DNA from: Escherichia phage Ecwhy_1
Length of the DNA stretch: 64,000 nucleotides
Sequence record: MH791411.1
Direction: 5' to 3' (one strand)
Shown: positions 1,554-56,420 of the stretch, piece after piece
Layout of the letters: each line of letters starts with the position of its first letter
How positions within the stretch are numbered: position 1 is the first letter of the stretch
The notes under the pieces: generated by a model
What the model was told of the DNA's origin: nothing
Database searches by the model: none
Seen by the model: only the letters and a program-made list of their open reading frames with translations
Translations under genes and position numbers: made by a program

Positions 1554-4500
1554 ATGACTAATAATTTTAAGTTTCAACCTACACAGATGGCTGAAGCAGT
1601 ACAGAAGAAGCTTTTCATAAAAAGATTGCCTGAGTGGATGCAAGGCTTAGAAGATATTCAGAAAGTCAGTGATGATGTTATCCAACAATGGTTTAATCCG
1701 GCTGAAAACGAATTAGTTGACGGCTACATTGGTGACATGGGTTCTCCGGCAGCAGCAGGGAACATCTTCTTACACGAGTCAACAGTCGCACGTCAACTAT
1801 ATCAGTTGTCCACTGCGTATGTCTCAAGAAATGATGACTCCAGCATTCGTTCAATTCAATTTTATGATGATCTAGTTGGCTATATGAATCATTACGGTGC
1901 ACTAACCGAAAATGAAAGCCGTTTGTTTAATGGTAAGTTCTATTCATGGACCCCACCAATTAACCCAAATAAAATGAACAACTACAGTTCATACCTATGG
2001 GATTCCAAGAATAGCTATAATATCACAACTCCAGATTATATTGTAATGGAACGTGGTGCAGAAAATGGTAACACTTGGTCACTACAAAACTTCTGGTACA
2101 CATTAGGTGAAACTTTAGAAGATGGTACTATCCTAACTGAAGAACTAATGCAAGATTCCCGTTTTGTTCGTGCTCGTGCACCAATTATCGAATACAATAA
2201 AAATATCGAACTAATGAACTACGGTACTAAATTCCGTGGGACAGTTGATTTGTTCTCTGATATTATTAAACCTGAAGATATCGTACAAAAAGATATTAAC
2301 AGCGGTATACGTATTGATGGTATTATTCCACAAGATGGTATGCGTATTCTTTTCACCAGTATTGGTAACAATGGTGAAAACAACCGAATTTATAAAGTAT
2401 ATGTTAAACGTATGCAAGATGGAACACGTGTGTATGGTCTAGCATTAGATCCAGACGAAGAATCTGAAAGCCGTCCGAGTGGTGAACCACAAGATGGTGA
2501 CGTAGTTCTTATTATCAAAGGTAATGAATTTGGTAACAGTTCCATGTATTGGGACGGTTCTCATTGGATTCAAGCACAGTCTAAAACTTCTGTGAACGTA
2601 TTTCCACAATTCCAATTGTATGACCGTAATGGTGTTAAACTAAACAACACTACTACCTATCCATCAAGTACTTTTACTGGTTCTTCACTATTTGGTTTTA
2701 AAATTAACTATAATTATGCAACTGATAGCGTTTATGGTTATAATATTGAACTAGGTGATTACAATTATTACACATATGAGAATTTCCTACAATCAACTCG
2801 TTATACTTACGAGCATTTGGGTGTGGAAGTTGAAATTGATGGACTATATTACTATAACGTAATTGGTGAAGGTAATACAATGAACCTAGAAACTGATTGG
2901 GTTCGTAGTACTGAATACTCCAAACAATATGTTAAACAAACTCCACAGGTTGAACGTACAGTAATGTTCCGCGTGTTCAGTACTGTTTATGACATGGAAA
3001 GTTTCAAAGACCCAGTTGAAGGAATGTATGCTTATGTAATTGAAGTTGACAGAACTTATCAATATTACAAAGCAGAACGTGAAACATATCTTGATTGGCA
3101 TGTTATCGTTGGTGATGGGGTACAAAGCGTTAAGTACAATCATACATTTGAATTGGCACAAAAAGTACTAGATAATTCTGATGATATTATCGAACTAGTT
3201 GTTGATGGTGTGGAAATAAAAGAATACACCAAAACTGTAGTTAATAATCAAGTACAAAGTATTACAATTGATAGCTCTGTTGATTTGGATGAAGATTCTG
3301 TTGTACAAATCAGAACTTATAGTAGCACTATCACTCCTAATAAAGAGTTGGGTGCATATGAAGTTCCAATTAACCTACAAAATAACCCATATAATTCAAA
3401 CATTGAATACATCAACCAAGGTGATTACACCCTGCACTTCCAAGATATTATTCAAAAGAATATTACATCTGGTTCTGCTGATGACTTTAACAATTACGAA
3501 GAACGTTTGGCTGCTGGTTTGGTTAATAATGGTGTAGGCACTAAAATTATTCAAAACGAAGCGTCCATGTTACCACTAATGGCACATACCGCTAATGAAG
3601 ATATTGATTTGTTTGAATCAATCATGTTTATGCAAGCAGAATACTTCCGCTTCATTAACAAGTTCAACACTCAAATGCTTCGTTTGTATGAAGAAGACCC
3701 AAGTGCTTTTCTTGGTAATAGTGCATCAAACATCGTAGATGCGATTCTAACAGCTATTAATATGGGACGTGATAGTACATTCCCATTCTACTATGACAAC
3801 GTTGCAAGCACTGCTGGGTTTATTCGTGCATTTGTCCCACCAACTCCACAGTTCTTGGGTATTTTGCAAGCTTATACACCACAAAAAGCAACATTCTTAA
3901 CTGCTGGTAGTAAATCTAGCTGTTATAATATCAGTCATACTGGTATTATTTCAAAAGCATACCGTGTTATCAATGGTGTTGATAAAATGGATGACGTAGT
4001 TTTTGAATTGGAAAATCGTATCTTTAATAGTATTGATCTTACTTTCAAGGATATTGATTATAAACCAGTACTAAACAGTGAAGACCTATTCCCAACTCCA
4101 TATTTCACTGGTACTGATTATAGTGCAGAAGAAAAGAAAACTCTATTACTACGTGGTTACATTAACTTCACAGCAACCAATGGCATTAGTAACAGTACTC
4201 ATGATTATGATGCAAATAACTGGAGAACTTGGAACTATACTGGTAGTTATTATGTTGTTGATGGTCAACGTACTGAAATTCCTGCTCGTGGTTCATGGCG
4301 TGCAATCTATACTGACCAATATGGCACATATCGTCCAGCAACCCATCCGTGGGAAATGATGGGCTTCTCTCAACGTCCTACTTGGTGGAACCAAGAATAC
4401 GAACCAACCGCAGTTCAAGTTGGTGAACGTGAGGGTGATGTTGTTTATGTGTATGAAGCACTAGTAATGAATGAAAATGGTGATTTGGTCCCAAGTGGAT

Positions 4501-35678: not shown

Positions 35679-37643
35679 ATGAGTATAAATCGAATTAGAG
35701 GTGATGGTGGTGTAATTATAGATAGTCAGGCATTTCTAGAATTACCTAAAGCACCGACTAAAGAAACCGCTGATGTGGTTAGATCAGGGATGATTAGATA
35801 CAATAAAGGATGGAAAGCATTTGAAGGTGTACTAGACTTTGAAGATGGTTCAATGGCATATCGACGTTTTGCAAACCTAGATGCAAACGGTAAACTTCTT
35901 ACTTCCCAATTACCAGATTCAGTAACTAGTGGTTTACAATTTGTTGGTACATATAATCCCATCCCAGATGATATCGATCCACCTTTAGCACAAACTCCAC
36001 TACCAGCACCATCACCATCGCTTAATGGTGATTATTATGTCGTTCGTGGTATAATGGATGCCGCACAAGCACATTATGAAGCAAATAATCCACAAACAAG
36101 TCCTGTTACATTTACACCTACAAATCCAACTGGACAAGGTAATTGGATTGAAATTTTATATTATGTTGACTCTAATCCAAATATATCTGGTGCTAAACTA
36201 GTAACATACGCTTTTGCTAGAATTATTACTGCATCTATTCCCAGTACTGGACATGATGGCCTTGAAAATTTAGCAACAGATACTGACTTGACCAAACCAT
36301 TTGCATCTGGTGTTCCAATGAACCAAACTGCACTTTCAGATGGTGATTGGATTATTATAACTGAAGATAAGAATATACGTCTTCGTCAGTCAAGAACAAG
36401 CATTTCCGCTGCTTCAGTATTATATGACAATACTGTAATGATTGCAAATCATCGCCAATTTAGAACAAACGCAGGGACCGTTCAAACATCCATAGATAAC
36501 GTTGTGATTGAGTGTTTACGTAGAACTGGCGATTCCATGTATAATGATGGAACAGACGGCTCTGGGCGTTTTGGGGTGGTGTATGGCAGTGCAGCAGCAC
36601 CAGCATTGACATTTAATAATAATCCGTTTGACCCAACGAACAACCCAGGTAATGACCCAACTAAGTGGTCCGATGCTAATACTGGTATATTCCATCCAGC
36701 AGATGATGCAATTGGTTTTACAACAGCCGGAACTGAGCGTGTTAGAATTAATAATGGAACATTAACATTATTCCAAACTACCGCTACACCAGCAGCTACG
36801 CCAGTAATACGTTTTGATAATGCATCAAACACAAACGTAGGGATAAGTGCAAGTAGTAATATTATTTCTTTAAGTTCAATGAATAAAGTTCAAGTTGAAT
36901 TTAAAAATGGTGAATCACATTTTCATGGAAATATTATTGTAGATGGATCAACATCACTAACTGGTGATTTAAACGCAGGTAACATCACTGCCAGCGGGAA
37001 TTTAGTTGTTAAAGGTAATACAACACTAGGCGACACTACTGGTGACACTATTACAGTTAATGGTGTTAGTACTTATAATGCAAATACTAATTTCAATGGA
37101 ACTAATAACAAATTCAAAAACATAAACTTACTAGAGAATGGTGTATTCACATTAGAAAGTACTACAAACCAAAGTGATATAAAACTACTTGGTGCAGACT
37201 TACGTTTCACTATGGGAAGTTATGCTGATGTAAGTATATATGATAACGGTGTTATTCGTACTCGTTTCAACCGATATGGTATTCAATTACCAGTACTGGC
37301 TACAATTGATAACTCAGTTGGTGTTGATGGTATGATTGCATACTCAAATACCGAACGTACATCGATGCAGAAGGTCCAAGGACAATGGGTTCCAATTGGT
37401 TCTGGTTCTGTACGTACTGACCCGTTTACTGCGTCAGCGTGGGTTTTAAACGGCTCATATTACACATTAACAGTAACTGCTAGTAACATAGTAACTGCTG
37501 AAATTCAAGAACTCGTAAGTACTGGTGTTTACACTCGTGTTGAAGTTGATAGTGTTACATTCAATGGAACAAGCGTAGTGTTCAGTATTCCTGCAACTCC
37601 TGATGTGAGATTTGCCGGACGTACACTGGTTACATTAAGATAA
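35679..37643 (+). CDS. Tail fibre protein (654 aa)
   Basis: RBS tgaggaaatatttaaATG. Beta-rich segment with NGTLTLFQTT and TGDLNAGNITASGNLVVKGNTTLGDTTGDTITVNG repeats like the giant fibres. SLNGDYYVV motif. Confidence 0.75.
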   Translation: MSINRIRGDGGVIIDSQAFLELPKAPTKETADVVRSGMIRYNKGWKAFEGVLDFEDGSMAYRRFANLDANGKLLTSQLPDSVTSGLQFVGTYNPIPDDIDPPLAQTPLPAPSPSLNGDYYVVRGIMDAAQAHYEANNPQTSPVTFTPTNPTGQGNWIEILYYVDSNPNISGAKLVTYAFARIITASIPSTGHDGLENLATDTDLTKPFASGVPMNQTALSDGDWIIITEDKNIRLRQSRTSISAASVLYDNTVMIANHRQFRTNAGTVQTSIDNVVIECLRRTGDSMYNDGTDGSGRFGVVYGSAAAPALTFNNNPFDPTNNPGNDPTKWSDANTGIFHPADDAIGFTTAGTERVRINNGTLTLFQTTATPAATPVIRFDNASNTNVGISASSNIISLSSMNKVQVEFKNGESHFHGNIIVDGSTSLTGDLNAGNITASGNLVVKGNTTLGDTTGDTITVNGVSTYNANTNFNGTNNKFKNINLLENGVFTLESTTNQSDIKLLGADLRFTMGSYADVSIYDNGVIRTRFNRYGIQLPVLATIDNSVGVDGMIAYSNTERTSMQKVQGQWVPIGSGSVRTDPFTASAWVLNGSYYTLTVTASNIVTAEIQELVSTGVYTRVEVDSVTFNGTSVVFSIPATPDVRFAGRTLVTLR

Positions 37644-37644
37644 T

Positions 37645-37678
37645 AAAAAAGGGAGACATAAGTCTCCCTTTTCTTTTA
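37645..37678. terminator. Bidirectional intrinsic terminator
   Basis: AAAAAA-gggagac-ataa-gtctccc-TTTTCTTTT between the convergent 654-aa fibre gene (+) and thyA (-). Confidence 0.8.
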
Positions 37679-38605
37679 TACAGCCATTGGTGCTTTGATT
37701 GTTGGCATTGGATCGTAATTAACTAATTTGAAAGAATCCATAGTGAAATCTTCAATATCAGTAATAGTAGGATCTAGCCATAATTCTGGTAATGTACGTG
37801 GTTCACGTTGGAGTTGCTCTTTTACTTGTTCAATATGGTTTTGATAGATATGGCAGTCGCCACCATTCCAAATAAATTCACCAACATCTAACCCTGTAAT
37901 TTGTGCAATCATATGAGTTAGTAGTGAGTAACTACTAATATTAAATGGCACACCAAGGAATAGATCAGCACTACGTTGATGAAGAATACAACTTAGTTTA
38001 CCCTGTACAACACAAAACTGCACAAAGCTATGACAGGGTGGCAAAGTCATAGCATCAAGCTCACCAACGTTCCATGCACTTAGAATGTGACGACGACCGT
38101 ATGGATCAGTATTGATACCTTCAATAACTTGTTTTAGCTGGTCAGTTACACGACGCATAATAACACCATGTGAACCAGTATAATCAATAACTTTATACCC
38201 TTTATCTTTTAGTTCTTGAATTTCTTCAGTACTGGAACTGAATTTATAATCTTCCCATTCACGCCATTGTTTACCATAAACTGGGCCAAGCTCACCATCA
38301 GAATACCCAAGGCTTACACCTTGATTAAGGTAGTTGTCTGTCCAAATTGTTTTCTTTTCTACATCACGTGTCCCGTGTAAAATTTCACACAGACGACGCT
38401 CATCGTGAGAACCTTCAATAAACCATAACAATTCTGAAGTCATTGCTTTCCAAGCCAAACGTTTAGTAGTTACTGCTGGGAAACCTTCTTTTAGGTCAAA
38501 ACGCATTTGTTGTCCGATTAGCTTGATAGTGCCAACACCAGTACGATCAACGCTTTCGACACCTTGATCCAGAATTCTTTGATATAGTTCTTGTAGTTGT
38601 TTCAT
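37676..38605 (-). CDS. thyA: Thymidylate synthase (ThyA family, T4 td-like with insertion)
   Basis: Near-collinear with E. coli ThyA: DRTGVGTIKLIGQQMRFDL, VTTKRLAWK, ELLWFI, catalytic PCH, SAWNVGELD, LGVPFNISSYSLLTHMIAQ, GDCHIY, KAP. Contains an insertion of about 50 aa (…EDYKFSSSTEEIQELKDKGYKVIDY…) as in phage T4 td. Confidence 0.9.
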   Translation of the reverse strand: MKQLQELYQRILDQGVESVDRTGVGTIKLIGQQMRFDLKEGFPAVTTKRLAWKAMTSELLWFIEGSHDERRLCEILHGTRDVEKKTIWTDNYLNQGVSLGYSDGELGPVYGKQWREWEDYKFSSSTEEIQELKDKGYKVIDYTGSHGVIMRRVTDQLKQVIEGINTDPYGRRHILSAWNVGELDAMTLPPCHSFVQFCVVQGKLSCILHQRSADLFLGVPFNISSYSLLTHMIAQITGLDVGEFIWNGGDCHIYQNHIEQVKEQLQREPRTLPELWLDPTITDIEDFTMDSFKLVNYDPMPTIKAPMAV

Positions 38606-39198
38606 TTTACGTCCTTGAAAAATGTAATAAAGTGTTCCATGTGTTTTTGTGTAGCATTACGTGAACCAATCCCAGTCCAATTACCGTGTGGTGCTGGTAT
38701 TGAGAATGTTTCAGTAAACTCTTTCAGTACTGTATCATAATAAAATACAGAGCGAGTGTTCATATCATAACAATATATTTCTGGATTGTCAACTGAATCC
38801 ATATACATCTGTACGGCCCATGCAGTTCCACCTGAAACTTGCGTAGGTGATGTAATATTTGCAATACAATATACTCTTTTTGTATTAAGTATCTGGTAAC
38901 TATTCCTTGCAAGTAAGTTATATACATACGAACCAGGCTTAGGAACTTTACGGCGTAAAGAGTAACATGCAATGTTTAATTGTTTTAATATTGAACTATC
39001 ACAAAGGATATTGGGTGGAATTTCTAATATAGTATTTTCATCTACGCTGCTTTGGTGACCCTTGAATGAAAAATTTATTACTTCAAATCCATTGTCTTTT
39101 GCATAGATAGAAAAAAGGCGGTCAGCACCTGCTGCCCCGCCACTGAAACATACATTAGATAAACCATTGATTGCTTCATCTAATTCTATTTTATTCAT
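38602..39198 (-). CDS. DprA/Smf-like Rossmann-fold (SLOG superfamily) protein
   Basis: CFSGGAAGADRLFSIYAKDNGFEV matches the DprA (S)GxAxGIDxxAH glycine-rich loop. LARNSYQILNTKRVYCIANITSPTQVSGGTAWAVQMYMD matches the DprA FPxRNRIIxGLSxxVxVVEAxxxSGSLxTA segment. Stop overlaps the thyA start (ATGA). Confidence 0.55.
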   Translation of the reverse strand: MNKIELDEAINGLSNVCFSGGAAGADRLFSIYAKDNGFEVINFSFKGHQSSVDENTILEIPPNILCDSSILKQLNIACYSLRRKVPKPGSYVYNLLARNSYQILNTKRVYCIANITSPTQVSGGTAWAVQMYMDSVDNPEIYCYDMNTRSVFYYDTVLKEFTETFSIPAPHGNWTGIGSRNATQKHMEHFITFFKDVK

Positions 39199-39203
39199 TT
39201 ATA

Positions 39204-39857
39204 TTATTTTGCTTTACGTTCAGCAAATGCCTGTTTAACTTTCTCAATTGCTTTGGTTTGTGAAATTCCTTCTGGGATTTCAATATAGAAAGTTTTGCTA
39301 TCAGGTGCTACAGGTGTTGCTTGAACTTGTGGACGTAGAGATGGTTCTAAGTTGTAAGCACGTTCAAAGTGCTCTTTAGCCAACTGCTCATAACGTTGTG
39401 CATCTTTAAGTAGTTGCTCAACAATGGTAGCTTCTTCAACAGAAGTATCGACTTCTTGTGGCTTGAATGGGTTGTATTCTTTAACTTTACCATCTTCATG
39501 TTTTTTAGCATCATTATCATTGATTGCGTTGTTTAGAACATCAAGAGAAATCTTACTGTTTCCACCAACATGCATATCAATATCACAAGTACGTGCACGA
39601 CGCAAATGTTGTAGATTATGAAGAACATCTAGCATTTTGCGACCGTCTAGATGACCAATCTTATGCATAACTTCCCACAAATCTACATTCGATTGACCTT
39701 GATTCATTACTAAATCTGCAACAGATTGAGCATATGCTTCAGGAAGTGAGTCGCGATAAACAATGAGACAATGTTCTGGATCATCAGGGAGTGAACGCCA
39801 TACCACAAATACTCGTGAACCCGTATTACGTACTACACCAACGTGACGAATAGCCAT
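39204..39857 (-). CDS. Hypothetical protein (217 aa)
   Basis: ORF in the same leftward operon, 2 nt from the downstream gene and 2 nt from the upstream one. Charged coiled-coil-like C-terminal half. Confidence 0.55.
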   Translation of the reverse strand: MAIRHVGVVRNTGSRVFVVWRSLPDDPEHCLIVYRDSLPEAYAQSVADLVMNQGQSNVDLWEVMHKIGHLDGRKMLDVLHNLQHLRRARTCDIDMHVGGNSKISLDVLNNAINDNDAKKHEDGKVKEYNPFKPQEVDTSVEEATIVEQLLKDAQRYEQLAKEHFERAYNLEPSLRPQVQATPVAPDSKTFYIEIPEGISQTKAIEKVKQAFAERKAK

Positions 39858-39859
39858 TA

Positions 39860-40105
39860 TTATTCTCCTTTATTTTGTTCAGCAGCAGCTTGTGCAGCAT
39901 CAGCTTCTTCTTGTGCTTTGATATCTTCGAGTGCAGAGTTAGCAAACTCAACAAACTTAGATACGACTGGAGCAACATCAACAAGTTCTTCGACTTTAAA
40001 TGAATTACGAGCCACAGCAGCTTCCATGATTTTAGCAGCGTTGATTAGGTCGATTAGGGTTAGTTGAATTTTTTCTGGTTCTTGTTCCATTTTAATACTC
40101 TCCAT
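39860..40105 (-). CDS. Small acidic hypothetical protein (81 aa)
   Basis: The ORF-track start at 40189 overlaps the promoter. The ATG at 40105 (MESIKMEQEPEK...) sits 20-25 nt downstream of the TGaTATAAT -10 element. Acidic and Ala/Glu-rich. Confidence 0.5.
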   Translation of the reverse strand: MESIKMEQEPEKIQLTLIDLINAAKIMEAAVARNSFKVEELVDVAPVVSKFVEFANSALEDIKAQEEADAAQAAAEQNKGE

Positions 40106-40119
40106 GTATGTTGTTACAA

Positions 40120-40140
40120 ATATAATTATATCACCTTTTT
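40120..40140 (-). promoter_or_regulatory. Extended -10 promoter (TGaTATAAT) for the leftward DprA-like/thyA operon
   Basis: Minus strand reads aaaaaggTGaTATAATtatatttgtaacaacatacATG. No good -35, but the TGn extension is present. Located just downstream of the VWA-gene terminator. Confidence 0.5.
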
Positions 40141-40156
40141 CCAAGCTGTCCCGCTG

Positions 40157-40187
40157 AAAAAAGTAGAGAACGGAATTTTCCGTTCTC
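40157..40187 (-). terminator. Rho-independent terminator (minus strand)
   Basis: gagaacgg-aatttt-ccgttctc, 8-bp perfect stem. On the minus strand it is followed by TTTTTT; placed after the VWA/metallopeptidase gene stop at 40200. Confidence 0.75.
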
Positions 40188-40199
40188 ATTATTTAGTAC

Positions 40200-41609
40200 T
40201 TAGCTACGTTGACGCTTTTTGTCAGCTTCATATTCGTAGTGTACAGTTTCGCCAAATGGTGCTTGTTTGTTAGGATTACTGTGGATAACAAACAGTGTCT
40301 TACAGTAATCAGGATCACCCCATGACTGCCACGGCTCACCATCTGTAAACATAATAAGCTGTTTAGGCTTATAGTTGTCATGCTTCATATGAACCCATAC
40401 TGCTTCAAAGTCAGTACCACCACCACCTTTCACTGGATATTCGAGAATCTTACTCTCTTCACCAGTTTTGTAATCTTTCACAGTATAAACTTCAGTATCG
40501 AACGTCATGATACGGATTTTAAATTGTTTAAACTGCTTAGTGATACCCAGTACTTCACTGATGAAATCACGGAGCATATCTTCAGAGATAGAACCGGATG
40601 CATCTAGTGCAATTGCAATATCAATATCATCATCTGGTTTCATACCAGGGAAGATTGGATTCCCGTAGAATGAACCAGAACTACCAAAACCAGCACCCCA
40701 TGAACGACGATTAGGATTTTGATAAGTTGCATCAGACTTCAACCAGCTACGCAGTGTGCGGTGAAGTTTGGAACGCCAGTCAATCTTAGGTTCTTTGAAG
40801 TTGTTAATCATACGTGCGATTTCAGCAGGAGTACCACCTGCACGAGCAGCATTCATCATTGCTGTTTTGAAATCATCCATATAATCACGTTTTTGTTTAT
40901 CACTTGAACCACCTTCTTGACCTTCTTGTGGAACGTCATGCTGGTCGATTGTTGTACCTTTGCCTTTACCATCTTTGATATCACCAAAAGTACCGCGTGA
41001 TTTACCTTCACCCTCACCACTACCAGCCTGTGGATTTCCTTCACCTTCTCCGTCTTGATCCTGCTTATCTTCTTCTTCGAGAATGTTATAAATCTCTTCA
41101 GCAGTCATACCATCGTACTTTTTATCGTACAGCCATTGGCTTTGGATTTTACCAATTTTATCACGAACAAGAATCTGGTTAATTGCATAGTCAGCAGCAC
41201 GGTTATAACGCTGCGGGTCACGCATACCACGACGCAAGAAGTGGTCATATGCACAGTGAAGAATCTCATGACAGATAACTGCAATCAGGTTTTCATCGGT
41301 CAAACCTTCTGTCATTTCTTTAAGTTGTTCTTCAGTTACTTCAGGATGTTTCTCACGAATTGCTTCTTCGTATGCTGACTTTTTGGATTGGTCCTGAATA
41401 CCCATGATGAATTCTACGTTGTAGAATAAATGCTTACCATCTACAGCCAAAGTACGACACCATGTGTTGTTTGCAACTGGACGCAGACGAGAAGCCAGTA
41501 CACCAAAGAATGGGAATGTTAGCATTAAAGATGTGCGAGCTAAGATCAGACGATCTTGACATTCTTTCTGGAGAGCCGGAGTAACATCACTGAAACGTTT
41601 ATCTGACAT
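40200..41609 (-). CDS. VWA-domain protein with N-terminal HExxH metallopeptidase-like domain (DUF2201-type partner of a MoxR ATPase)
   Basis: Zinc-binding motif VICHEILHCAYDH in the N-terminal half. C-terminal von Willebrand A domain with MIDAS motif IALDASGSIS, and …ILEYPVKGGGGTDFEAV…IMFTDGE. Gly/Glu-rich acidic linker between the two domains. Confidence 0.8.
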   Translation of the reverse strand: MSDKRFSDVTPALQKECQDRLILARTSLMLTFPFFGVLASRLRPVANNTWCRTLAVDGKHLFYNVEFIMGIQDQSKKSAYEEAIREKHPEVTEEQLKEMTEGLTDENLIAVICHEILHCAYDHFLRRGMRDPQRYNRAADYAINQILVRDKIGKIQSQWLYDKKYDGMTAEEIYNILEEEDKQDQDGEGEGNPQAGSGEGEGKSRGTFGDIKDGKGKGTTIDQHDVPQEGQEGGSSDKQKRDYMDDFKTAMMNAARAGGTPAEIARMINNFKEPKIDWRSKLHRTLRSWLKSDATYQNPNRRSWGAGFGSSGSFYGNPIFPGMKPDDDIDIAIALDASGSISEDMLRDFISEVLGITKQFKQFKIRIMTFDTEVYTVKDYKTGEESKILEYPVKGGGGTDFEAVWVHMKHDNYKPKQLIMFTDGEPWQSWGDPDYCKTLFVIHSNPNKQAPFGETVHYEYEADKKRQRS

Positions 41610-43178: not shown

Positions 43179-43222
43179 GTGGTCATTATATCACATCGTT
43201 CAGGCTTGTCAACAACTTTTTT
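43179..43222 (-). promoter_or_regulatory. Tandem promoter copy 1: TTGACA-N16-TGaTATAAT (minus strand)
   Basis: + strand gtggtcATTATAtcacatcgttcaggctTGTCAAcaactttttt. Reverse complement gives a perfect -35 and an extended -10 with 16-nt spacer. Confidence 0.7.
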
Positions 43223-51817: not shown

Positions 51818-54481
51818 TTATTGAGTCTTTTCAATACGAATAGGTACGTAAATGAAGTTGATAGACTTAGTAGGTTGGATTGCAATATCCATCCAAAGTT
51901 CGTTACGGTCAATACGTTCAGAAGTGTTGTTACTTTCGTCACAAACTACTGCGAAGTTATATAGACCTTGTTGTTGAACGATTTCAGCTAGGAAGCTATT
52001 CACTACACCACTGAATTCCTGACGAGTACTTGGAGTATTCAAACGGAATAGGAATGGTTCAGAGATGATTTCTAGTTGACGACGAATGTAAACAACCAAA
52101 CGAGCAACGTTAACACGGCTTAGTGCAGAGGTTTGGTTAGCAGATAGTGTTTTATCACCATATACTAGCAAGCCACGGTTAGGACGCATTGCAATTGGGT
52201 TAATGTTGTTGGTATACATCACGTCACGTTGACCTTGGTTGTATACTACTGGTTGATATTCACCTTCACTGTTAATGAAACCAGTACTTGCAGCGTTGGT
52301 TACAACACCACGAGTAGTACCAGCAGGTGGATACCACACATAACTAACACTATCACTGTACGCATAGGTACGCATTGCAACAGTACTGCCTGGAACTGCA
52401 ACTTCTTCACCATCAACGTTAGTACTTAAACACCAGCCCATGTACTGAGCAGCATAATCATATGCAGAAGTACGGCCTACTGAACCATTACTTGGTGCGT
52501 TGTTTGCGTTGGTAGCCCATTCTTGAACTGCACTACCGTTTCCGGTTGGGTTCAAACGAGCAGGTACATCAGTTACGATAAACGCTGTTTCTTTACGATC
52601 AGTGTTTAGGGTAATACATTCATCTAGAGTTTCTACATAACCAGGAACACAGATTAGGTTAAAGTTGATGAATTCAGAACGGATATCATCATTACCGATG
52701 ATTACAGCAGCTAGTGCTTCAACGATTAGTTTGCGTTGTGCTGCACGACCGAATAGACCTGCACCATCAAGACTAACACCACTAACAACTTGCCATTGAC
52801 CATTAACCATTTTCTTAACAACACCTTCGGTATTACCGAGGTCAATTGCAAGCATACCATTCTGATAAAGAGCAGCAGAAGCAACTTGTTCAGGGAAGTT
52901 AAAGTCAGCGAAAATCATACCGTTTAGAGTACTTTGGTCAGTATTGTCTAGTTTAACCCACTCACCATCAACGTTACGATAGAAATCATAACCATCAATT
53001 CCTTGAGATAGAGGGCGTACCCAAATTAGACGGTCTGCCGAAGGTTCATCAACTTGAACATATTTGTTATCTTCTTGTACTAGATCCCATTCGTCATTTG
53101 CAACATCTGCAATGTACATGGTAACAGTTAGGTTATCGGAATTACCGAAATCATACCAAATAGTACCGTCTTTAGCAATACTACGTGGAACAGAAGAGCT
53201 AACACGTAAGTTATTAACGTTAACTAGAGAATAGTTGTTACTATCTACAGTTAGTTTAGCTAGTTCATTCGCTGCAAAAATATCATCACCGCTTTGGGTA
53301 ACTTTAAAGCTATAACCTTTGGTGTTTGTAACTACCAAACCGCCATTAGATTCACGTTTGAATTTGAATCCATCATTGATAAGATCAGCACTAACATTTA
53401 GATTATCGATGATAGTTTGAGTATTAATTACGCCACCTTGTGGTACTGCAAGTACTTTAACAGATTTGTTTAGGTAAGCGAAAGTCAAATAACTATTTTC
53501 ACCAGCTTGCTCAATAACAGTTTCACCTAGTGGTACTGCTGGAGCACTAATTGCTGATAGTTTTGCACTTTGAATATAGAAAGAGAAACTCTTACTATCG
53601 TCATCAAAACGGCAAGCAATATAACTGTTGTTTAGTACACCACTCTTAGCTTCAACTTCTTGGAAAGAATTACCAGTATATGCTGGAACGATATTCCAAA
53701 CTTGAGTTAGAGATGCATAACGTTTTAGAACAAAGCGAGTGCCAAAATAGTTTGAACCATTTTGAGTATAACCATCACGAATCCATACGTTACCTTGTTC
53801 AACAGTTGAACCAACTGGAACTTTGTTGATTGGTGATAGATAAGTTTCAACCTGTACTAGACCAGATGCTGCACGTTTGTACATAAGCATTTGACCATTA
53901 CTTGGCTTATAACGTAGAACTAGATCATCAACGTTTAGACCAACTAGGCTAACATCGTCAACTTCTTCAGAACTTACGATGGTAACAGGCTTCAATTGCC
54001 AGTCATAGAAGCTGCTTGGGCTGTCTTTCTTAGCAACATAAGCTTCAATTTGTGATTGAGCAGCATCAAACCATAGAGTACCATTTGGTACTGGACCAGT
54101 TGGTGCAGTTGCACTTGGTGATAGTTGAGCTAAATCGATATCAGCACGAATAACATATGCACGGTTGGTGATGCCTAGATAAGAATACACAGCATGTAGA
54201 CCATATTCGTTTAGTTCGTCACCTTGAACAACTGAACCATTGTTCATTTGGAAAATTGGTGAGCCAAATGTATCTAGTGAGCTTTTCTGTGATGTTAGTA
54301 GCTGTAGTTTACCAGCGTTTGCTTTAGTGGTTCCCGCAGCGATTGCACTGCTACCAGGAACAAGTTTGTCTTCAGCAGTAGCGATTACAAATAGTGGTAC
54401 TGTGCCAGGAGCAGCAGCAGTACTCATACTTTCATCAGTTACTGAAATGGAAACGCCAGGTGAGAGTAGATCTCCTGCCAT
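51818..54481 (-). CDS. Contractile tail sheath protein (887 aa)
   Basis: N-terminus MAGDLLSPGVSISVTDES matches the conserved sheath N-terminal signature (T4 gp18 MTLLSPGIELKE…). Size and position next to tube-like genes fit. RBS tttggaggatttaatATG. Confidence 0.65.
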   Translation of the reverse strand: MAGDLLSPGVSISVTDESMSTAAAPGTVPLFVIATAEDKLVPGSSAIAAGTTKANAGKLQLLTSQKSSLDTFGSPIFQMNNGSVVQGDELNEYGLHAVYSYLGITNRAYVIRADIDLAQLSPSATAPTGPVPNGTLWFDAAQSQIEAYVAKKDSPSSFYDWQLKPVTIVSSEEVDDVSLVGLNVDDLVLRYKPSNGQMLMYKRAASGLVQVETYLSPINKVPVGSTVEQGNVWIRDGYTQNGSNYFGTRFVLKRYASLTQVWNIVPAYTGNSFQEVEAKSGVLNNSYIACRFDDDSKSFSFYIQSAKLSAISAPAVPLGETVIEQAGENSYLTFAYLNKSVKVLAVPQGGVINTQTIIDNLNVSADLINDGFKFKRESNGGLVVTNTKGYSFKVTQSGDDIFAANELAKLTVDSNNYSLVNVNNLRVSSSVPRSIAKDGTIWYDFGNSDNLTVTMYIADVANDEWDLVQEDNKYVQVDEPSADRLIWVRPLSQGIDGYDFYRNVDGEWVKLDNTDQSTLNGMIFADFNFPEQVASAALYQNGMLAIDLGNTEGVVKKMVNGQWQVVSGVSLDGAGLFGRAAQRKLIVEALAAVIIGNDDIRSEFINFNLICVPGYVETLDECITLNTDRKETAFIVTDVPARLNPTGNGSAVQEWATNANNAPSNGSVGRTSAYDYAAQYMGWCLSTNVDGEEVAVPGSTVAMRTYAYSDSVSYVWYPPAGTTRGVVTNAASTGFINSEGEYQPVVYNQGQRDVMYTNNINPIAMRPNRGLLVYGDKTLSANQTSALSRVNVARLVVYIRRQLEIISEPFLFRLNTPSTRQEFSGVVNSFLAEIVQQQGLYNFAVVCDESNNTSERIDRNELWMDIAIQPTKSINFIYVPIRIEKTQ

Positions 54482-54575
54482 ATTAAATCCTCCAAAAATA
54501 ATTGGTTATTCGAATTATATTCGTATAGTCTTATTTATTGAAGGATTTGAATGTCAAGTCCTAATTGTTTTAATT

Positions 54576-55202
54576 TCACTTATTGGCATAAATAACGCTC
54601 AATGCTTGTTGGTGCAACGCTTCAATTGTGCTATTATTTTGTACAATGATATCAGGATTATTGATACCAATCCACGCCCATTCAGATTCATGAACTGATT
54701 CTAACTCAATTGGTTTCATGCTAATATCACCTTTATTAAAAGATGCTGCTAAACCATACCAGTGTGGGAGGGTACGCTGAACTTCAATCACAATACCATT
54801 TAATGAACGAATCATTTTTAGTTCATTTGGAAATCGGCAGTCAGTAATGATAATATTCCCTTCAACAGATTGCATTGACTTCTCTAAGCTATGGACCCAA
54901 ATATCATTATGAAAGTACTTACGCAAAATATTAGTACCGTAATTCTGTAATACCCAACGAGGGGAAACATCATCACGCCCCAACTTCTCACACCAGTACT
55001 GGTCTGGCTCTTCACGGAGTTTACGACTTTCCTTAGTCGAACCCTCAAGCATTTCACGATCCCATCCAAAGATAGCAGCAACTGAATCTTTAAGATTAGT
55101 TGCAAATGACATTCTTGTGTAACCATTATTGATAAAAGTTTCACCAAAAGTATCTTTGCCACTACCGATAGTACCGTTAATTGCAATTATTTGTCTTTCC
55201 AT
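54576..55202 (-). CDS. Deoxynucleoside monophosphate kinase (T4 gene 1-like)
   Basis: P-loop AINGTIGSGKDTFGE (T4 gp1 has FLSGVKRSGKDTTAD). ITDCRFPNE block resembles T4 VPDTRQDHE. Confidence 0.6.
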   Translation of the reverse strand: MERQIIAINGTIGSGKDTFGETFINNGYTRMSFATNLKDSVAAIFGWDREMLEGSTKESRKLREEPDQYWCEKLGRDDVSPRWVLQNYGTNILRKYFHNDIWVHSLEKSMQSVEGNIIITDCRFPNELKMIRSLNGIVIEVQRTLPHWYGLAASFNKGDISMKPIELESVHESEWAWIGINNPDIIVQNNSTIEALHQQALSVIYANK

Positions 55203-55220
55203 AATACTTCTCCATGTATA

Positions 55221-55499
55221 TTATATAAGTACTACTAAATCCTTTCCTACTAAACATTCAAGTAATCCAACTATAAACTCACTCCCATAATATATAGTAA
55301 CATAAGTGATGTAGAATGTTTCTCCATTATCATCACGACATATACTCGCCCACGCGTTTATTCGATCTCTACCGAAAACATCTACGATTGATTCTTTTAT
55401 AAATTTCCAGTTCTTTTCGGTTGATTCATAATCCAATGTAGGTGCTCCACAAGTATATTTGTTATACATTGCATACACTGCATCTATGTTGTTATTCAT
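55221..55499 (-). CDS. Hypothetical protein (92 aa)
   Basis: ORF directly downstream of a TGTGATATAAT element; RBS aaaggaacctgacATG. Confidence 0.5.
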   Translation of the reverse strand: MNNNIDAVYAMYNKYTCGAPTLDYESTEKNWKFIKESIVDVFGRDRINAWASICRDDNGETFYITYVTIYYGSEFIVGLLECLVGKDLVVLI

Positions 55500-55525
55500 G
55501 TCAGGTTCCTTTAGATTAATATTAT

Positions 55526-55537
55526 CATTATATCACA
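55526..55537 (-). promoter_or_regulatory. Extended -10 promoter element TGtGATATAAT (third exact copy of the cattatatcaca 12-mer)
   Basis: Exact 12-mer cattatatcaca on the + strand. No TTGACA at -35 because the terminator hairpin sits there. 28 nt upstream of the 92-aa gene ATG. Confidence 0.45.
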
Positions 55538-55540
55538 ACA

Positions 55541-55570
55541 TATAAAAAAAGACCCCATATAGGAGTCTTT
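55541..55570. terminator. Bidirectional terminator
   Basis: AAAAAAA-gacccc-atat-aggagtc-TTTTTTTT (imperfect stem) after the 263-aa gene. Confidence 0.55.
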
Positions 55571-55578
55571 TTTTTGTT

Positions 55579-56370
55579 TTATCCGATAATCATTCCAAGT
55601 GGGTCACCACCATCTTTGTATCTCTTCAACTGTTCTTTAAGCTGTTCTTGAAGTTGTGCACCTTCATTACGTAATGTATCACCATCCATAGAGAATGTAC
55701 CCTGTGGTCCAGGCAATGTAGCAAATTTAGCACGGTTGCGACCCAACATAATCATAGCTTCAGACAATGCCCAGTCACGTAGCCAAGGATAGCTTTGTTG
55801 ACGTTGGAATAGCAATGGTTCAGGTATATTATGATATACATGTAATAGCACTTCTTCAGTACCGCGAATATCACGATCAATTATTAGTTTTTTGGTCATT
55901 GGGTTGAACTGGAAGATGATTTCTCTACCAAACATACGCCCAACTAATTCTTGGAATTGAAAACTAAAATCATAAGTAGTTAAGTCATAACCACCAGCGT
56001 TACGTGCAGACGTTAAAAGGTAAGTGTTGGTAAATGCGAGTGAAAAAGGGTCTACTGAGTTACCACTACCAGAACTTAGATAACCGTTACCATAACGATA
56101 AATCTGTTTGACAATTTCAACTTCAGTAGGAAGCATGTATACAGATTGTGAATCATAGAATTTCATGTTCAAGAATGCTTCTTCTTTTGAAGCAGAACTC
56201 CATGCTCGGTAGTTTGATACCGCATTATCAATTGCAATTTCCAATTGACCATCAGTAATTTCAACTTCAACTGCACCAGCACCTAACATTTGAGTGATAA
56301 CATCTTTCAGTTTTTCACGATGATCAAAGTTTGGAGCATCTGGGTTTCCACCCATATAATCGTAAGACAT
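55579..56370 (-). CDS. Hypothetical protein (263 aa), possibly virion or neck associated
   Basis: Likely start is the ATG at 56370 (aatGAGGTGcttttttATG); the ORF-track start is 5 codons upstream, inside the SD. Confidence 0.5.
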   Translation of the reverse strand: MSYDYMGGNPDAPNFDHREKLKDVITQMLGAGAVEVEITDGQLEIAIDNAVSNYRAWSSASKEEAFLNMKFYDSQSVYMLPTEVEIVKQIYRYGNGYLSSGSGNSVDPFSLAFTNTYLLTSARNAGGYDLTTYDFSFQFQELVGRMFGREIIFQFNPMTKKLIIDRDIRGTEEVLLHVYHNIPEPLLFQRQQSYPWLRDWALSEAMIMLGRNRAKFATLPGPQGTFSMDGDTLRNEGAQLQEQLKEQLKRYKDGGDPLGMIIG

Positions 56371-56420
56371 AAAAAAGCACCTCATTAATGTTTATATACA
56401 TTATTTAGAGGTGCTAATAG

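What the first reader, a model, noticed from the sequence alone, without database searches (positions are those of the whole stretch)
37676..40140. DprA/SLOG-like Rossmann protein translationally coupled to a T4-td-like thymidylate synthase in a four-gene early operon
- Operon order on the minus strand: TGaTATAAT promoter, 81-aa acidic protein, 217-aa unknown, 198-aa DprA-like protein, thyA, bidirectional terminator.
- The DprA-like stop overlaps the thyA start (ATGA).
- The 198-aa protein has both DprA Rossmann signatures: the Gly-rich loop SGGAAGADRLF and …RNSYQILNTKRVYCIA…SGGTAWAVQMYMD. It is only the Rossmann core, with no SAM or winged-helix domains.
- SLOG/DprA-like domains bind nucleotides or ssDNA and have been implicated in nucleotide-centred conflict systems.
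- Coupling to dTMP synthesis suggests a role in nucleotide or nucleobase processing, for example a nucleoside 2'-deoxyribosyltransferase/LOG-like activity or modified-base metabolism, rather than classical transformation.
Basis: partly seen in the sequence, partly recalled or inferred. Interest (0 to 1): 0.65.

Follow-up and report, generated by a model that had tools for sequence, protein, structure and literature searches.

The report
Permuted DprA-like protein beside phage thyA
A jumbo E. coli phage carries a small nucleotide-binding protein of the DprA/SLOG fold (with its strands in rearranged order) in one transcription unit with an ordinary thymidylate synthase; public records already label it "DprA-like", its function is untested, and the link to thymidylate synthesis holds only in this phage lineage.

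Summary
The cassette is real. The window is a 121Q/RaK2-like jumbo coliphage, 99.8% identical to fEgEco12.

Minus-strand order: terminator, TG-extended -10 promoter, 76/81-aa acidic ORF, 217-aa ORF, 198-aa ORF, thyA (ATGA overlap), bidirectional terminator. Promoter and terminator positions recur in seven distant relatives.

The 198-aa protein:
- It is a single-domain SLOG protein (AF2 pLDDT 97).
- It appears circularly permuted: the DprA "G-S/T-R" strand lies at the C-terminus.
- Both published DprA pocket motifs are invariant. The LOG catalytic Glu is absent.
- No Pfam model reaches threshold. phrog_768 ("DprA-like") matches at 5e-27.
- The family is large: 2,824 clusters at 50% identity.

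Context:
- thyA adjacency occurs only in the 13 RaK2-like loci of 79 viral loci.
- A dNMP kinase is the commonest neighbour elsewhere (11 of 36 dereplicated lineages).
- Other neighbours include primase, SbcCD, ligase, dUTPase and ThyX. The domain is also fused to NADAR and sits inside giant proteins.

ThyA is a genuine thymidylate synthase by sequence.

Verdict: new member of a known kind. It is probably a non-LOG nucleotide/ssDNA-pocket protein in phage DNA or dNTP metabolism. Interest is modest.

The parts
40166..40187 (.). Bidirectional hairpin terminator ending the upstream VWA/DUF2201 gene. It marks the 5' boundary of the cassette.
   Evidence: 9-bp stem, 5 GC pairs, T-run. A hairpin lies at the same place in seven RaK2-like relatives, each with a different stem sequence.
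40125..40152 (-). Sigma-70-type promoter: -35-like GGGACA, 16-nt spacer, TG-extended -10 (TGATATAAT at 40125-40133).
   Evidence: motif enriched, 15 against 6.4 expected. TGnTATAAT is preceded by TGGGACA, TGAAACG or TGGAACG in 121Q, GAP32, CBB and fHe-Yen9-04. This matches the 'divergent RpoD-like' class of PMC5259590.
40095..40109 (-). Short inverted repeat ATACA-TGGAG-(A/T)GTAT enclosing the Shine-Dalgarno sequence of the first ORF.
   Evidence: It recurs as ATACATGGAG(A/T)GTAT in six of the seven relatives examined. It has no other exact copy in the window. Function not tested.
39860..40105 (-). Small acidic ORF, 81 aa from ATG 40105 or more likely 76 aa from ATG 40090. Clade-specific, function unknown.
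   Evidence: phrog_13789 at E 1.1e-31; annotated as 76 aa in fEgEco12 g310.
39204..39857 (-). 217-aa protein found only in RaK2-like phages. N-terminal SH3/KOW-like beta-barrel domain, then a disordered linker and long helices. Function unknown.
38602..39198 (-). 198-aa single-domain, apparently circularly permuted SLOG (DprA/YpsA-type) protein. Invariant S19-G-G-A-x-G-A-D26, L95-L-x-R98-N99-x-x-Q102, G123-G-T125 and C-terminal G176-I-G-S/T-R180.
37676..38605 (-). thyA: classical (ThyA-type) thymidylate synthase, 309 aa. Its start overlaps the SLOG stop (ATGA).
   Evidence: PF00303 at E 3.6e-101. NCBIfam NF002497 scores 343.1 against a cut-off of 327. PDB ThyA chains match at E about 1e-80.
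37645..37674 (.). Bidirectional intrinsic terminator shared with the convergent 654-aa tail-fibre-like gene (35679-37643, + strand).
   Evidence: 13-bp stem, T-runs on both strands. A stem-plus-T-run directly follows thyA in six of seven relatives, each with a different stem. Only sub-threshold Rfam hits, consistent with a terminator hairpin.

Best explanation
The cassette is one transcription unit of a 121Q/RaK2-like jumbo coliphage, read by host sigma-70 RNA polymerase from a TG-extended -10 promoter. It ends in a genuine thymidylate synthase.

The 198-aa gene product is a stand-alone SLOG domain. Its polypeptide order appears circularly permuted relative to DprA, YpsA and LOG: the strand-loop that carries DprA's G-S/T-R motif comes last instead of first.

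It keeps, invariant, both motifs shown in H. pylori DprA to form the small pocket that holds one nucleotide base under an arginine lid. These are G-S/T-R (here G178-S-R180) and F/L/Y-x-x-R-N/D (here L95-L-A-R98-N99). It lacks the Glu of the LOG hydrolase motif.

I therefore think it works as a non-LOG, probably non-catalytic nucleotide-pocket protein. It would grip a (deoxy)nucleotide, either one flipped out of single-stranded DNA as in DprA or a free pyrimidine dNMP. It would serve phage DNA or DNA-precursor metabolism during genome replication.

Shown here: the fold, the motifs, the operon boundaries, the ThyA identity and the gene neighbourhoods. Inferred: the ligand, the absence of catalysis, the timing of expression and the biological role.
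For: Identity of the phage: 99.8% nucleotide identity to Escherichia phage fEgEco12 and about 83.6% to 121Q and PBECO4.

Family: phrog_768 'DprA-like' at E 4.7e-27. The profile finds 2,824 clusters at 50% identity.

Motifs: G178 63/63, S/T179 63/63, R180 63/63, L95 61/63, R98 63/63, N/D99 63/63, D26 63/63. These are the two signature motifs and pocket residues defined experimentally for HpDprA (R52, F140, R143, N144; PMC3950713).

Permutation:
- The GSR strand is the last strand of the model, E174-178.
- A profile with the C-terminal module moved to the front aligns co-linearly across the junction with S. pneumoniae DprA (iGsR...SGGAaGaD against VGSR...SGLAKGID), but only at E 0.21. The native profile gives no DprA hit at E up to 10.

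No LOG Glu: position 130 is Q in 56, E in 6 and V in 1; A128 is invariant.

Role in DNA or precursor metabolism:
- The protein is found in every RaK2-like genus sampled.
- It is coupled to thyA here.
- dNMP kinase is adjacent, often with a 4-nt overlap, in 11 of 36 dereplicated viral lineages. It is found within the roughly 6-kb flanks of 40 of 66 non-RaK2 loci.
- Single cases: dUTPase, a dCTP-deaminase-like gene, ThyX in L101, and dCMP deaminase 3 kb away.
- Other neighbours are primase, exonucleases, SbcCD (gp46/47 in Cr30) and DNA ligase.

Operon boundaries recur in seven relatives.
Against: - No member of this family has been tested, nor to my knowledge any member of the 3imk/cpYpsA family. 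Ligand and activity are pure inference.
- The permutation test against DprA is statistically weak (E 0.21). I could not do a permutation-aware structural superposition.
- The protein is near-neutral (pI 6.4; family median 6.7). That is not what is expected of a dedicated ssDNA binder.
- HpDprA needs a dimer and at least 20-35 nt of ssDNA for tight binding. Oligomeric state here is unknown.
- Much of the dNMP-kinase adjacency lies inside one old synteny block (neck, kinase, SLOG, tail sheath). It may therefore count as few independent events.
- thyA adjacency is a single event in one clade.
- Invariant D26, R83, R98 and Q102 could equally be catalytic residues of an unknown enzyme.
- Fusions to NADAR and histidine phosphatase, and placement inside giant proteins that include a virion RNA polymerase, point to other roles.
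Confidence: 0.45

Rival explanations
1. It is an enzyme of the thymidylate/dNMP branch. The permuted SLOG domain binds a pyrimidine dNMP (dUMP, dTMP or a modified form) and chemically processes it, for example by N-glycosidic cleavage, base exchange or another modification. It would act with ThyA and dNMP kinase. This is essentially the first reader's idea.
For: - Tight coupling to thyA (ATGA) and to dNMP kinase (4-nt overlaps in many loci).
- All metabolic neighbours lie on the route to dTTP: a dCTP-deaminase-like gene, dUTPase, dCMP deaminase, ThyA, ThyX and dNMP kinase.
- One family member is fused to a histidine phosphatase.
- SLOG relatives of the LOG/PpnN type are nucleotide N-glycosidases (family knowledge).
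- The protein is near-neutral.
- D26, R83, R98 and Q102 are invariant or nearly so.
Against: - The LOG motif PGGxGTxxE is not kept: Q130 or A128 replaces the Glu.
- The conserved residues are exactly those of the non-catalytic DprA pocket.
- Adjacency to thyA is clade-specific.
- The RaK2-like phage CBB already encodes the standard set of nucleotide enzymes, including DHFR, dCMP deaminases and thymidine kinase (PMC5259590).
Confidence: 0.22
2. It is a classical DprA-type recombination mediator. It binds ssDNA and helps load the phage RecA homologue UvsX. This is what the GenBank and PHROG label implies, and Iyer et al. 2021 suggested it for jumbo-phage DprA/Smf proteins.
For: - Both DprA ssDNA-pocket motifs are invariant.
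- In Caulobacter phage Cr30 the gene directly follows gp47/gp46 with abutting stop and start.
- Neighbours elsewhere include primase, exonucleases, PD-(D/E)XK nucleases and ligase.
- A BFVD structural match lies inside a protein named DNA 3'-5' helicase.
- The domain sits inside the virion RNA polymerase of phage Pylas. N4-type virion polymerases use single-stranded templates (my knowledge).
- RaK2-like phages encode UvsX.
- Iyer et al. proposed jumbo-phage DprA as an extra ssDNA-binding protein (PMC7824862).
Against: - Pfam DprA membership fails.
- There are no SAM or winged-helix domains. The DprA dimer and RecA-binding surfaces are untested.
- Group 2 jumbo phages keep UvsY according to Iyer et al., so no mediator is missing.
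- pI is near neutral.
- The most frequent neighbour is a nucleotide kinase, not a recombination gene.
Confidence: 0.2
3. It is a counter-defence factor. The SLOG pocket would bind or process an NAD- or nucleotide-derived immune signal (ADPR, cADPR isomers or cyclic nucleotides), or help remove ADP-ribose from DNA, protecting the phage from Thoeris-, CBASS- or DarT-type systems.
For: - The domain is fused to a NADAR domain in a 2,942-aa giant protein (E 1.5e-12) and weakly in P0216.
- A NADAR gene and an Acb1 gene lie within two genes in single lineages.
- NAD-salvage genes (NAMPT, NMNAT-Nudix) lie 1-3 kb away in L163/L164.
- The domain is embedded in giant proteins of N4-like and crAss-like phages, one of them a virion RNA polymerase.
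- The ThsA SLOG domain binds 3'cADPR (7uxs is listed).
- Iyer et al. predict NAD-derived chemistry for jumbo-phage YAcAr-type SLOG domains.
Against: - There is no PADLOC hit.
- Each of these associations is a single event.
- The gene is conserved across a whole phage group at a fixed position among DNA-metabolism genes. Anti-defence genes are usually variable.
- The motifs match DprA rather than ThsA.
Confidence: 0.08

Closest known systems
PDB 3imk, 'putative molybdenum carrier protein' from Syntrophus aciditrophicus. From memory, this is the type structure of Pfam PF12694, cpYpsA (circularly permuted YpsA SLOG family).
   Same: - It is a single-domain protein of similar size.
- Low-identity (about 25%) relatives of the phage family are recovered from Syntrophobacterales and Desulfobacterota genomes.
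- Two family members give sub-threshold PF12694 hits.
   Different: - The query itself gives no PF12694 hit at E up to 1.
- Profile searches of PDB sequences do not find 3imk.
- The phage family adds a beta-hairpin (residues 141-164) and carries DprA-type G-S/T-R and L-x-x-R-N motifs.
- To my knowledge the function of 3imk's family is also unknown.
DprA/Smf (Pfam PF02481), including the DprA-like antitoxin ShosA
   Same: - Both signature ssDNA-pocket motifs and the SGxAxGxD loop are conserved.
- Two family members outside the 63-sequence alignment give weak PF02481 hits, the best at 6.2e-6. Two members of the alignment give weaker ones, the best at 6.3e-3.
- Public records label the protein 'DprA-like'.
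   Different: - It is below the Pfam threshold.
- The GSR strand is at the C-terminus, not the N-terminus.
- There are no SAM or winged-helix/DML1 domains.
- pI is near neutral.
- The genomic partners are nucleotide enzymes rather than competence or RecA-related genes.
- ssDNA and RecA binding, shown for DprA and ShosA, are untested here.
YAcAr / DUF2493 (Pfam PF10686), the label used in the fEgEco12 record
   Same: There is a sub-threshold match over the Gly-rich loop: residues 15-44, E 1.2e-3. Fifteen of 63 family members match likewise. The family is also common in phages, for example an N4-like early gene and the ICP1 HelB C-terminus.
   Different: The score is 19.1 bits against a gathering score of 28.2, and only 30 residues are matched. 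The YAcAr-labelled phage proteins cited are about 120-130 aa. The 'DUF2493 domain-containing' label is therefore not justified by Pfam's own cut-off.
LOG / PpnN nucleotide 5'-monophosphate N-glycosidases (Pfam PF03641)
   Different: The catalytic motif PGGxGTxxE is not kept. The sequence is SGGTAWAVQ, with Q in 56, E in 6 and V in 1 of 63 at the Glu position, or an invariant Ala in the other register.
T4 td and bacterial ThyA (for the downstream gene)
   Same: Full-length ThyA with the catalytic Cys and the dUMP-specifying Asn. E is about 1e-80 to bacterial ThyA and 8.6e-75 to T4 td.
   Different: It has an insertion of about 35 residues (about 119-153) relative to E. coli ThyA. There is no intron, unlike T4 td (my knowledge of td). 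It is no closer to T4 td than to bacterial enzymes.

Membership tests
SLOG superfamily (SMF/DprA-LOG Rossmannoid fold) | Rossmann-like three-layer fold that superposes on known SLOG members | tested here: met
   [not shown]
SLOG superfamily (SMF/DprA-LOG Rossmannoid fold) | Gly-rich ligand-binding loops after the core strands | tested here: met
   S19-G-G-A-x-G-A-D26, G123-G-T125 and G176-I-G-S/T-R180 are invariant or nearly so in 63 sequences.
DprA (Pfam PF02481, DNA_processg_A) | Score at or above the Pfam gathering threshold | tested here: not met
   The query gives no PF02481 hit at E up to 1. Only 2 of 63 family members match, best E 6.3e-3. The distant members P0216 and P0243 score 26.0 and 20.2 bits against 29.6.
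DprA (Pfam PF02481, DNA_processg_A) | Signature motif 1, G-S/T/A-R, as defined by Wang et al. 2014 | tested here: met
   G178 63/63, S/T179 63/63, R180 63/63. Motif definition from PMC3950713. The motif is located at the C-terminus.
DprA (Pfam PF02481, DNA_processg_A) | Signature motif 2, F/L/Y-x-x-R-N/D | tested here: met
   L95 61/63, R98 63/63, N99 61/63 plus D in 2/63 (definition).
DprA (Pfam PF02481, DNA_processg_A) | Canonical order of elements: GSR strand before the SGxAxGxD strand | tested here: not met
   GSR lies on the last strand, E174-178. Only a profile with the C-terminal module moved to the front aligns co-linearly with SpDprA, and weakly (E 0.21, against no hit).
DprA (Pfam PF02481, DNA_processg_A) | ssDNA binding as a dimer and loading of RecA | not testable with these tools
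   Needs EMSA or MST and RecA/UvsX interaction assays.
cpYpsA (Pfam PF12694) | Score at or above the Pfam gathering threshold | tested here: not met
   No hit for the query. P0216 and P0224 score 19.5 and 17.4 bits against 26.2.
cpYpsA (Pfam PF12694) | Close structural similarity to the family's solved structure (3imk), with the permuted strand order | tested here: inconclusive
   [not shown]
YAcAr / DUF2493 (Pfam PF10686) | Score at or above the Pfam gathering threshold | tested here: not met
   19.1 bits against 28.2; residues 15-44 only. Fifteen of 63 members match, all sub-threshold.
LOG / PpnN phosphoribohydrolases | Catalytic motif PGGxGTxxE with the Glu | tested here: not met
   The sequence is SGGTAWAVQ. 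Position 130 is Q in 56, E in 6 and V in 1; A128 is invariant.
Known anti-phage defence proteins (PADLOC models) | Match to any PADLOC model | tested here: not met
   No hit at E up to 1 for the SLOG protein, p217, the small ORF or the VWA protein.
Thymidylate synthase ThyA (for 37676-38605) | Family HMM above the curated cut-off | tested here: met
   PF00303 scores 338 bits against 24.3. NCBIfam equivalog NF002497 scores 343.1 against 327.
Thymidylate synthase ThyA (for 37676-38605) | Catalytic Cys (PCH) and the Asn of PFNI that selects dUMP | tested here: met
   PPCHSF and VPFNISSY are in the translation and align to ThyA of 4fog.
Thymidylate synthase ThyA (for 37676-38605) | Methyl transfer rather than hydroxymethyl transfer | not testable with these tools
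   Sequence favours a true thymidylate synthase. Only an enzyme assay or base analysis of virion DNA can exclude a dUMP hydroxymethylase.

The most novel reading that the evidence does not exclude
The permuted SLOG family is a dedicated accessory of the thymidylate branch, not yet described. It would be a pyrimidine-dNMP/ssDNA-pocket protein that hands dTMP from thymidylate synthase to dNMP kinase, or that tethers these precursor enzymes to single-stranded DNA at replication forks. The second role resembles the one proposed for gp32 in the T4 dNTP-synthetase complex.

This reading would explain why the gene is coupled to dNMP kinase in many phages, to ThyA in RaK2-like phages and lies near ThyX in an archaeal virus-like contig, while still carrying DprA's ssDNA-pocket motifs.
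Probability: 0.12. Interest if true: 0.7.

Novelty: new member of a known kind. Interest (0 to 1): 0.33.

Why it matters
A protein family of at least 2,800 sequence clusters is labelled "DprA-like recombination mediator" or "DUF2493" on thin evidence. It is conserved across the RaK2-like jumbo phages and also occurs inside the giant proteins of N4-like and crAss-like phages.

This analysis shows three things:
- The family is a distinct SLOG family outside every Pfam model, apparently circularly permuted.
- It keeps the DprA single-nucleotide pocket but not the LOG catalytic residue.
- Its most recurrent partners are enzymes of the dTTP branch.

That turns a vague annotation into a few cheap, decisive binding and activity experiments. 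If the thymidylate link were real, it would add a new component to phage dNTP synthesis. If not, the protein is one more DNA-metabolism accessory, and the thyA coupling is a lineage-specific accident of gene order.

Tried and rejected
- NCBIfam and PADLOC scans of the SLOG protein, p217 and the small ORF found nothing.
- PDB sequence searches with the native family profile gave only spurious matches to designed WD40-like proteins.
- The afdb50 fold library was unavailable.
- Burroughs et al. 2015, the paper that defined SLOG families, is not held. The supplements of Iyer et al. 2021 are not held either. I could not check how those authors classed this exact protein.
- An internal promoter-like site inside the SLOG gene is the best sigma-70 match in the region (TTGACA-17-TATGAT, 38792..38764). 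I rejected it because its -35 is not conserved in 121Q or RaK2.
- An Rfam scan of 36-42 kb gave only sub-threshold hits on the terminator hairpin.
- The 'DprA replaces a missing UvsY' idea was rejected for this phage group, because Iyer et al. report UvsY conserved across group 2 jumbo phages.
- TadIV-1, a phage sponge for a Thoeris signal, was checked as a possible relative. It is an unrelated helical dimer.
- thyA as a family-wide partner was rejected. It is absent from the roughly 6-kb flanks of all 66 non-RaK2 viral loci and all 80 bacterial loci.

Full report
WHAT THE WINDOW IS. The 4-kb stretch around the finding is 99.8% identical to Escherichia phage fEgEco12. It is 99.1-99.7% identical to WPEC3, vB_Ec-M-J, CMSTMSU and others, and about 83.6% identical to 121Q and PBECO4. 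The window therefore comes from a RaK2-like jumbo myovirus of about 350-385 kb. In those records the 198-aa gene is already labelled "DprA-like DNA recombination-mediator protein", "DUF2493 domain-containing protein" or "hypothetical protein".

THE OBSERVATION. The ORF list and the sequence confirm the layout on the minus strand:
- hairpin terminator, 40187-40166;
- promoter-like site GGGACA-16 nt-(TG)TATAAT, 40152-40125;
- small acidic ORF, 81 aa from 40105, or more likely 76 aa from 40090, which has GGAG 7 nt upstream and is the start annotated in fEgEco12;
- 217-aa ORF, 39857-39204;
- 198-aa ORF, 39198-38602;
- thyA, 38605-37676, whose ATG overlaps the preceding TGA (ATGA);
- 13-bp bidirectional terminator, 37674-37645, shared with the convergent 654-aa tail-fibre-like gene.

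The regulatory signals are more than chance. TGNTATAAT occurs 15 times in the window against 6.4 expected, and none of 100 shuffles reached 15. Comparison with seven RaK2-like relatives adds to this. The set includes 121Q, RaK2, GAP32, CBB and fHe-Yen9-04. A hairpin and a TGnTATAAT lie in the same place upstream of the cassette in all seven, although the sequences differ. A stem-plus-T-run directly follows thyA in six of them, each with a different stem.

The -35-like element reads TGGGACA, TGAAACG or TGGAACG. That is the "divergent RpoD-like" class (-35 TGAAACG) which Buttimer et al. found mainly before DNA-synthesis genes in CBB, not the canonical TTGACA class they assigned to early genes (PMC5259590). 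"Early" is therefore unproven. A middle, DNA-metabolism timing class is at least as likely.

The four-gene, ATGA-coupled form is particular to this subclade. 121Q has a 1-nt overlap and RaK2 a 2-nt gap. Ten of the 13 RaK2-like loci have an extra ORF of about 115 aa between the SLOG gene and thyA.

THE 198-aa PROTEIN: FOLD AND FAMILY. PHROGs places it in phrog_768, "DprA-like", at E 4.7e-27. In Pfam the only hit is a 30-residue, sub-threshold match to YAcAr/DUF2493 (19.1 bits against 28.2). When all 63 aligned homologues are scanned, none reaches any Pfam gathering score: YAcAr matches 15 of 63 and DprA 2 of 63, all sub-threshold. NCBIfam and PADLOC give nothing.

Superfamily membership is therefore established. 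Membership of DprA proper is not.

CIRCULAR PERMUTATION AND THE POCKET MOTIFS. The invariant residues fall into four groups:
- S19-G-G-A-x-G-A-D26;
- L95-L-x-R98-N99-x-x-Q102;
- G123-G-T125-x-W-A128;
- G176-I-G-S/T-R180, on the last beta-strand of the model (E174-178).

In DprA and YpsA the equivalent "VGSR/ITGYK" strand comes first.

I tested the permutation by moving the C-terminal module of 24 family members to the front and searching PDB sequences. The permuted profile aligns co-linearly across the junction with S. pneumoniae DprA (iGsR...helix...SGGAaGaD against VGSR...SGLAKGID). The E-value is only 0.21. The native profile finds no DprA at E up to 10. This is weak on its own. It agrees with the top fold match being 3imk, which I recall as the type structure of Pfam's "circularly permuted YpsA" family.

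Wang et al. showed by crystal structure and mutagenesis that HpDprA holds ssDNA by inserting one base into a small conserved pocket. The pocket is formed by R52 of a "G-S/T/A-R" motif and by F140, R143 and N144 of an "F/L/Y-x-x-R-N/D" motif. They proposed these two motifs as the DprA signature, in contrast with LOG's "PGGxGTxxE" (PMC3950713). Both DprA motifs are kept essentially without exception in the phage family. The LOG Glu is not kept: that position is Q in 56, E in 6 and V in 1 of 63, or an invariant Ala in the other register.

The conserved chemistry is therefore that of the DprA nucleotide pocket, not of the LOG hydrolase.

SIZE AND SPREAD OF THE FAMILY. A profile search of 1.84 billion cluster representatives finds 2,824 proteins at E up to 1e-3, and 1,966 at E up to 1e-10. 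Most are stand-alone proteins of 175-210 aa.

Fusions:
- a histidine phosphatase domain (P0152);
- a NADAR domain in a 2,942-aa giant protein (E 1.5e-12), and weakly in P0216;
- an uncharacterised C-terminal extension of about 100 aa;
- two further giant proteins of about 3,000-3,400 aa with no Pfam hit.

Among isolated phages the protein is found in every RaK2-like genus sampled. It also occurs in Agrobacterium phage Atu_ph07, Caulobacter phage Cr30, Sinorhizobium phage Phosso and crAss-like phages, and as a domain inside the virion RNA polymerase of the N4-like Klebsiella phage Pylas.

Relatives at 24-33% identity occur in bacterial chromosomes (Flavobacterium/Paenimyroides and many Desulfobacterota), next to ordinary housekeeping genes.

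GENE NEIGHBOURHOODS. thyA lies in the roughly 6-kb flanks of 13 of the 79 viral loci fetched. All 13 are RaK2-like, and in them the whole block from the VWA gene to thyA is syntenic. The thyA link is therefore one lineage-specific event.

In the other 66 loci a dNMP kinase (PF21448, phrog_139) lies in the flanks of 40. It usually sits immediately upstream with a 4-nt overlap. The flanks vary, and the order is reversed in L014 and L029.

I dereplicated the loci at 60% identity, giving 36 lineages and 91 neighbours within two genes. The counts are:
- dNMP kinase, 11;
- PTH2, 3;
- DNA primase, two PHROG families with 2 members each;
- PD-(D/E)XK nuclease, 2;
- exonuclease, 2;
- SbcCD, ligase, dUTPase, dCTP-deaminase-like, NAD synthase, NADAR, Acb1 and peptide deformylase, 1 each.

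Further single cases:
- In Cr30 the gene follows gp47/gp46 with abutting stop and start.
- On a Methanobacterium MAG contig the SLOG gene lies about 1 kb from a ThyX gene.
- In L163/L164 a dCMP deaminase lies 3 kb upstream and NAMPT plus NMNAT-Nudix lie 1-3 kb downstream.

One caveat matters. Much of the kinase adjacency lies inside one old synteny block: neck protein, dNMP kinase, SLOG, tail sheath. Phosso, Atu_ph07 and contigs of about 550 kb show this block.

The window itself has this block (neck 55579-56385, kinase 54576-55202, sheath 51818-54481), but without the SLOG gene, which sits 15 kb away beside thyA. When the gene left the kinase in this lineage, it therefore landed next to the enzyme one step upstream in dTTP synthesis. 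That is suggestive, but it is still one event.

THE OTHER GENES.
- ThyA is a normal thymidylate synthase by sequence. PF00303 gives 3.6e-101, the NCBIfam equivalog is above its cut-off, the catalytic PPCH and PFNISSY are present, and E is about 1e-80 to bacterial ThyA against 8.6e-75 to T4 td. It is not specifically T4-like. It carries an insertion of about 35 residues. Hydroxymethylase activity cannot be excluded by sequence alone, but nothing suggests it.
- The 217-aa protein has homologues of at least 40% identity only, and every one that carries a source name is from a RaK2-like phage or an enterobacterial record. Its N-terminal domain is an SH3/KOW-like barrel (Z no higher than 7.1), followed by a disordered linker and long helices. 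This gives no functional lead.
- The small acidic ORF is likewise clade-specific.

HOW IT MOST LIKELY WORKS. Shown: the fold, the apparent permutation, the DprA-type pocket motifs, the absence of the LOG Glu, co-transcription with a true ThyA, and a family-wide setting among DNA-precursor and DNA-replication or repair genes.

Inferred: the protein uses the pocket to hold one nucleotide under Arg180, as HpDprA does with Arg52. The nucleotide could be in ssDNA or a free pyrimidine dNMP. On this reading the protein is an accessory of phage DNA or dNTP metabolism rather than a LOG-like hydrolase.

I give this general reading 0.45. The rivals are:
- a true enzyme of the dTTP branch, 0.22;
- a classical recombination mediator, 0.20. 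Iyer et al. already suggested an extra ssDNA-binding role for jumbo-phage DprA, but they also report UvsY conserved in this phage group;
- a counter-defence ligand binder, 0.08.

The near-neutral pI (6.4; family median 6.7) argues mildly against a dedicated ssDNA binder. The exact retention of DprA's non-catalytic pocket residues argues mildly against an enzyme.

COMPARISON WITH WHAT IS KNOWN, AND NOVELTY. SLOG domains in phages, including DprA and YAcAr types in jumbo phages, have been described (PMC7824862). A circularly permuted SLOG family is, from memory, already defined in Pfam (cpYpsA). PHROGs already holds this family, and GenBank records already carry the DprA-like label.

Four points are new here:
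- the family lies outside every Pfam model;
- it combines a 3imk-like, apparently permuted scaffold with both DprA pocket motifs;
- the "DUF2493" and "recombination mediator" labels are not earned by threshold or by experiment;
- the recurrent partners are dTTP-branch enzymes.

That makes it a new member of a known kind, of modest interest (0.33). The most novel reading not excluded is a dedicated thymidylate-branch accessory that channels dTMP or tethers precursor enzymes to ssDNA. I give that about 0.12.

Noticed in passing
window 51818-56385 (- strand): The conserved block runs neck protein (55579-56385), a 92-aa ORF, dNMP kinase (54576-55202), tail sheath (51818-54481). In Phosso, Atu_ph07 and contigs of about 550 kb the SLOG gene sits between the kinase and the sheath. 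Here that slot is empty and the SLOG gene is 15 kb away beside thyA. The kinase unit has its own terminator followed by a TGATATAAT promoter at 55527-55535.
   Followed up: partly
window 40095-40109 (- strand); L001, L003, L006, L008, L009, L012 at the equivalent position: An inverted repeat ATACA-TGGAG-(A/T)GTAT encloses the Shine-Dalgarno sequence of the first ORF of the cassette. It recurs in six of the seven RaK2-like relatives examined, while the flanking sequence diverges. It could be a small translational-control hairpin or a protein-binding site. There is no second exact copy in the window.
   Followed up: partly
window 40200-41609 (- strand): The 469-aa protein upstream of the cassette has a DUF2201_N putative metallopeptidase domain plus a VWA-like DUF2201 domain (E 3e-36 and 1e-21). 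PHROG and GenBank nevertheless call it 'HNH endonuclease'. It follows a gene annotated as an ATPase in fEgEco12. The label looks like a propagated misnomer.
   Followed up: no
L080 (Klebsiella phage Pylas NC_049444.1), match at locus 3001-3492, inside the virion RNA polymerase CDS: The same permuted SLOG domain (31.6% identity) is embedded in the giant virion RNA polymerase of an N4-like phage, at roughly residues 980-1145. Similar domains lie in giant proteins of crAss-like phages, and next to a NADAR domain in a 2,942-aa metagenomic protein (P0200).
   Followed up: partly
L101 (Methanobacterium sp. MAG contig PLXT01000105.1), 3786-4421 and 5385-6314: A 211-aa family member lies about 1 kb upstream of a flavin-dependent thymidylate synthase, ThyX (RHRxxS...SxRY motif). 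This is a second, non-homologous thymidylate synthase next to the family, on an archaeal and possibly viral contig.
   Followed up: partly
[not shown]
   Followed up: partly
window 38764-38792 (- strand), inside the SLOG gene: This is the best sigma-70 consensus match of the region (TTGACA-17-TATGAT with TG, 11 of 12), about 160 nt upstream of thyA. Its -35 is not conserved in 121Q (TTGAAA) or RaK2, so it is probably chance.
   Followed up: yes
window 13886, 43185, 43277 (- strand): Three canonical promoters (TTGACA, 13-nt spacer, TGnTATAAT) lie in intergenic positions. The two at 43185 and 43277 are tandem and near-identical. They differ in -35 class from the cassette's promoter, which suggests at least two sigma-70-type promoter classes in this phage.
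   Followed up: no
L083-L098 (Flavobacterium and Paenimyroides genomes): Chromosomal relatives of about 30% identity sit in a fixed context: a MiaB-like gene (divergent), the SLOG gene, a 309-aa ORF, a topoisomerase I-like gene. I assigned these neighbours by reading the sequences, not with a tool. From memory, bacterial dprA is often next to topA. This may hint at a DprA-like housekeeping role for the cellular branch.
   Followed up: no
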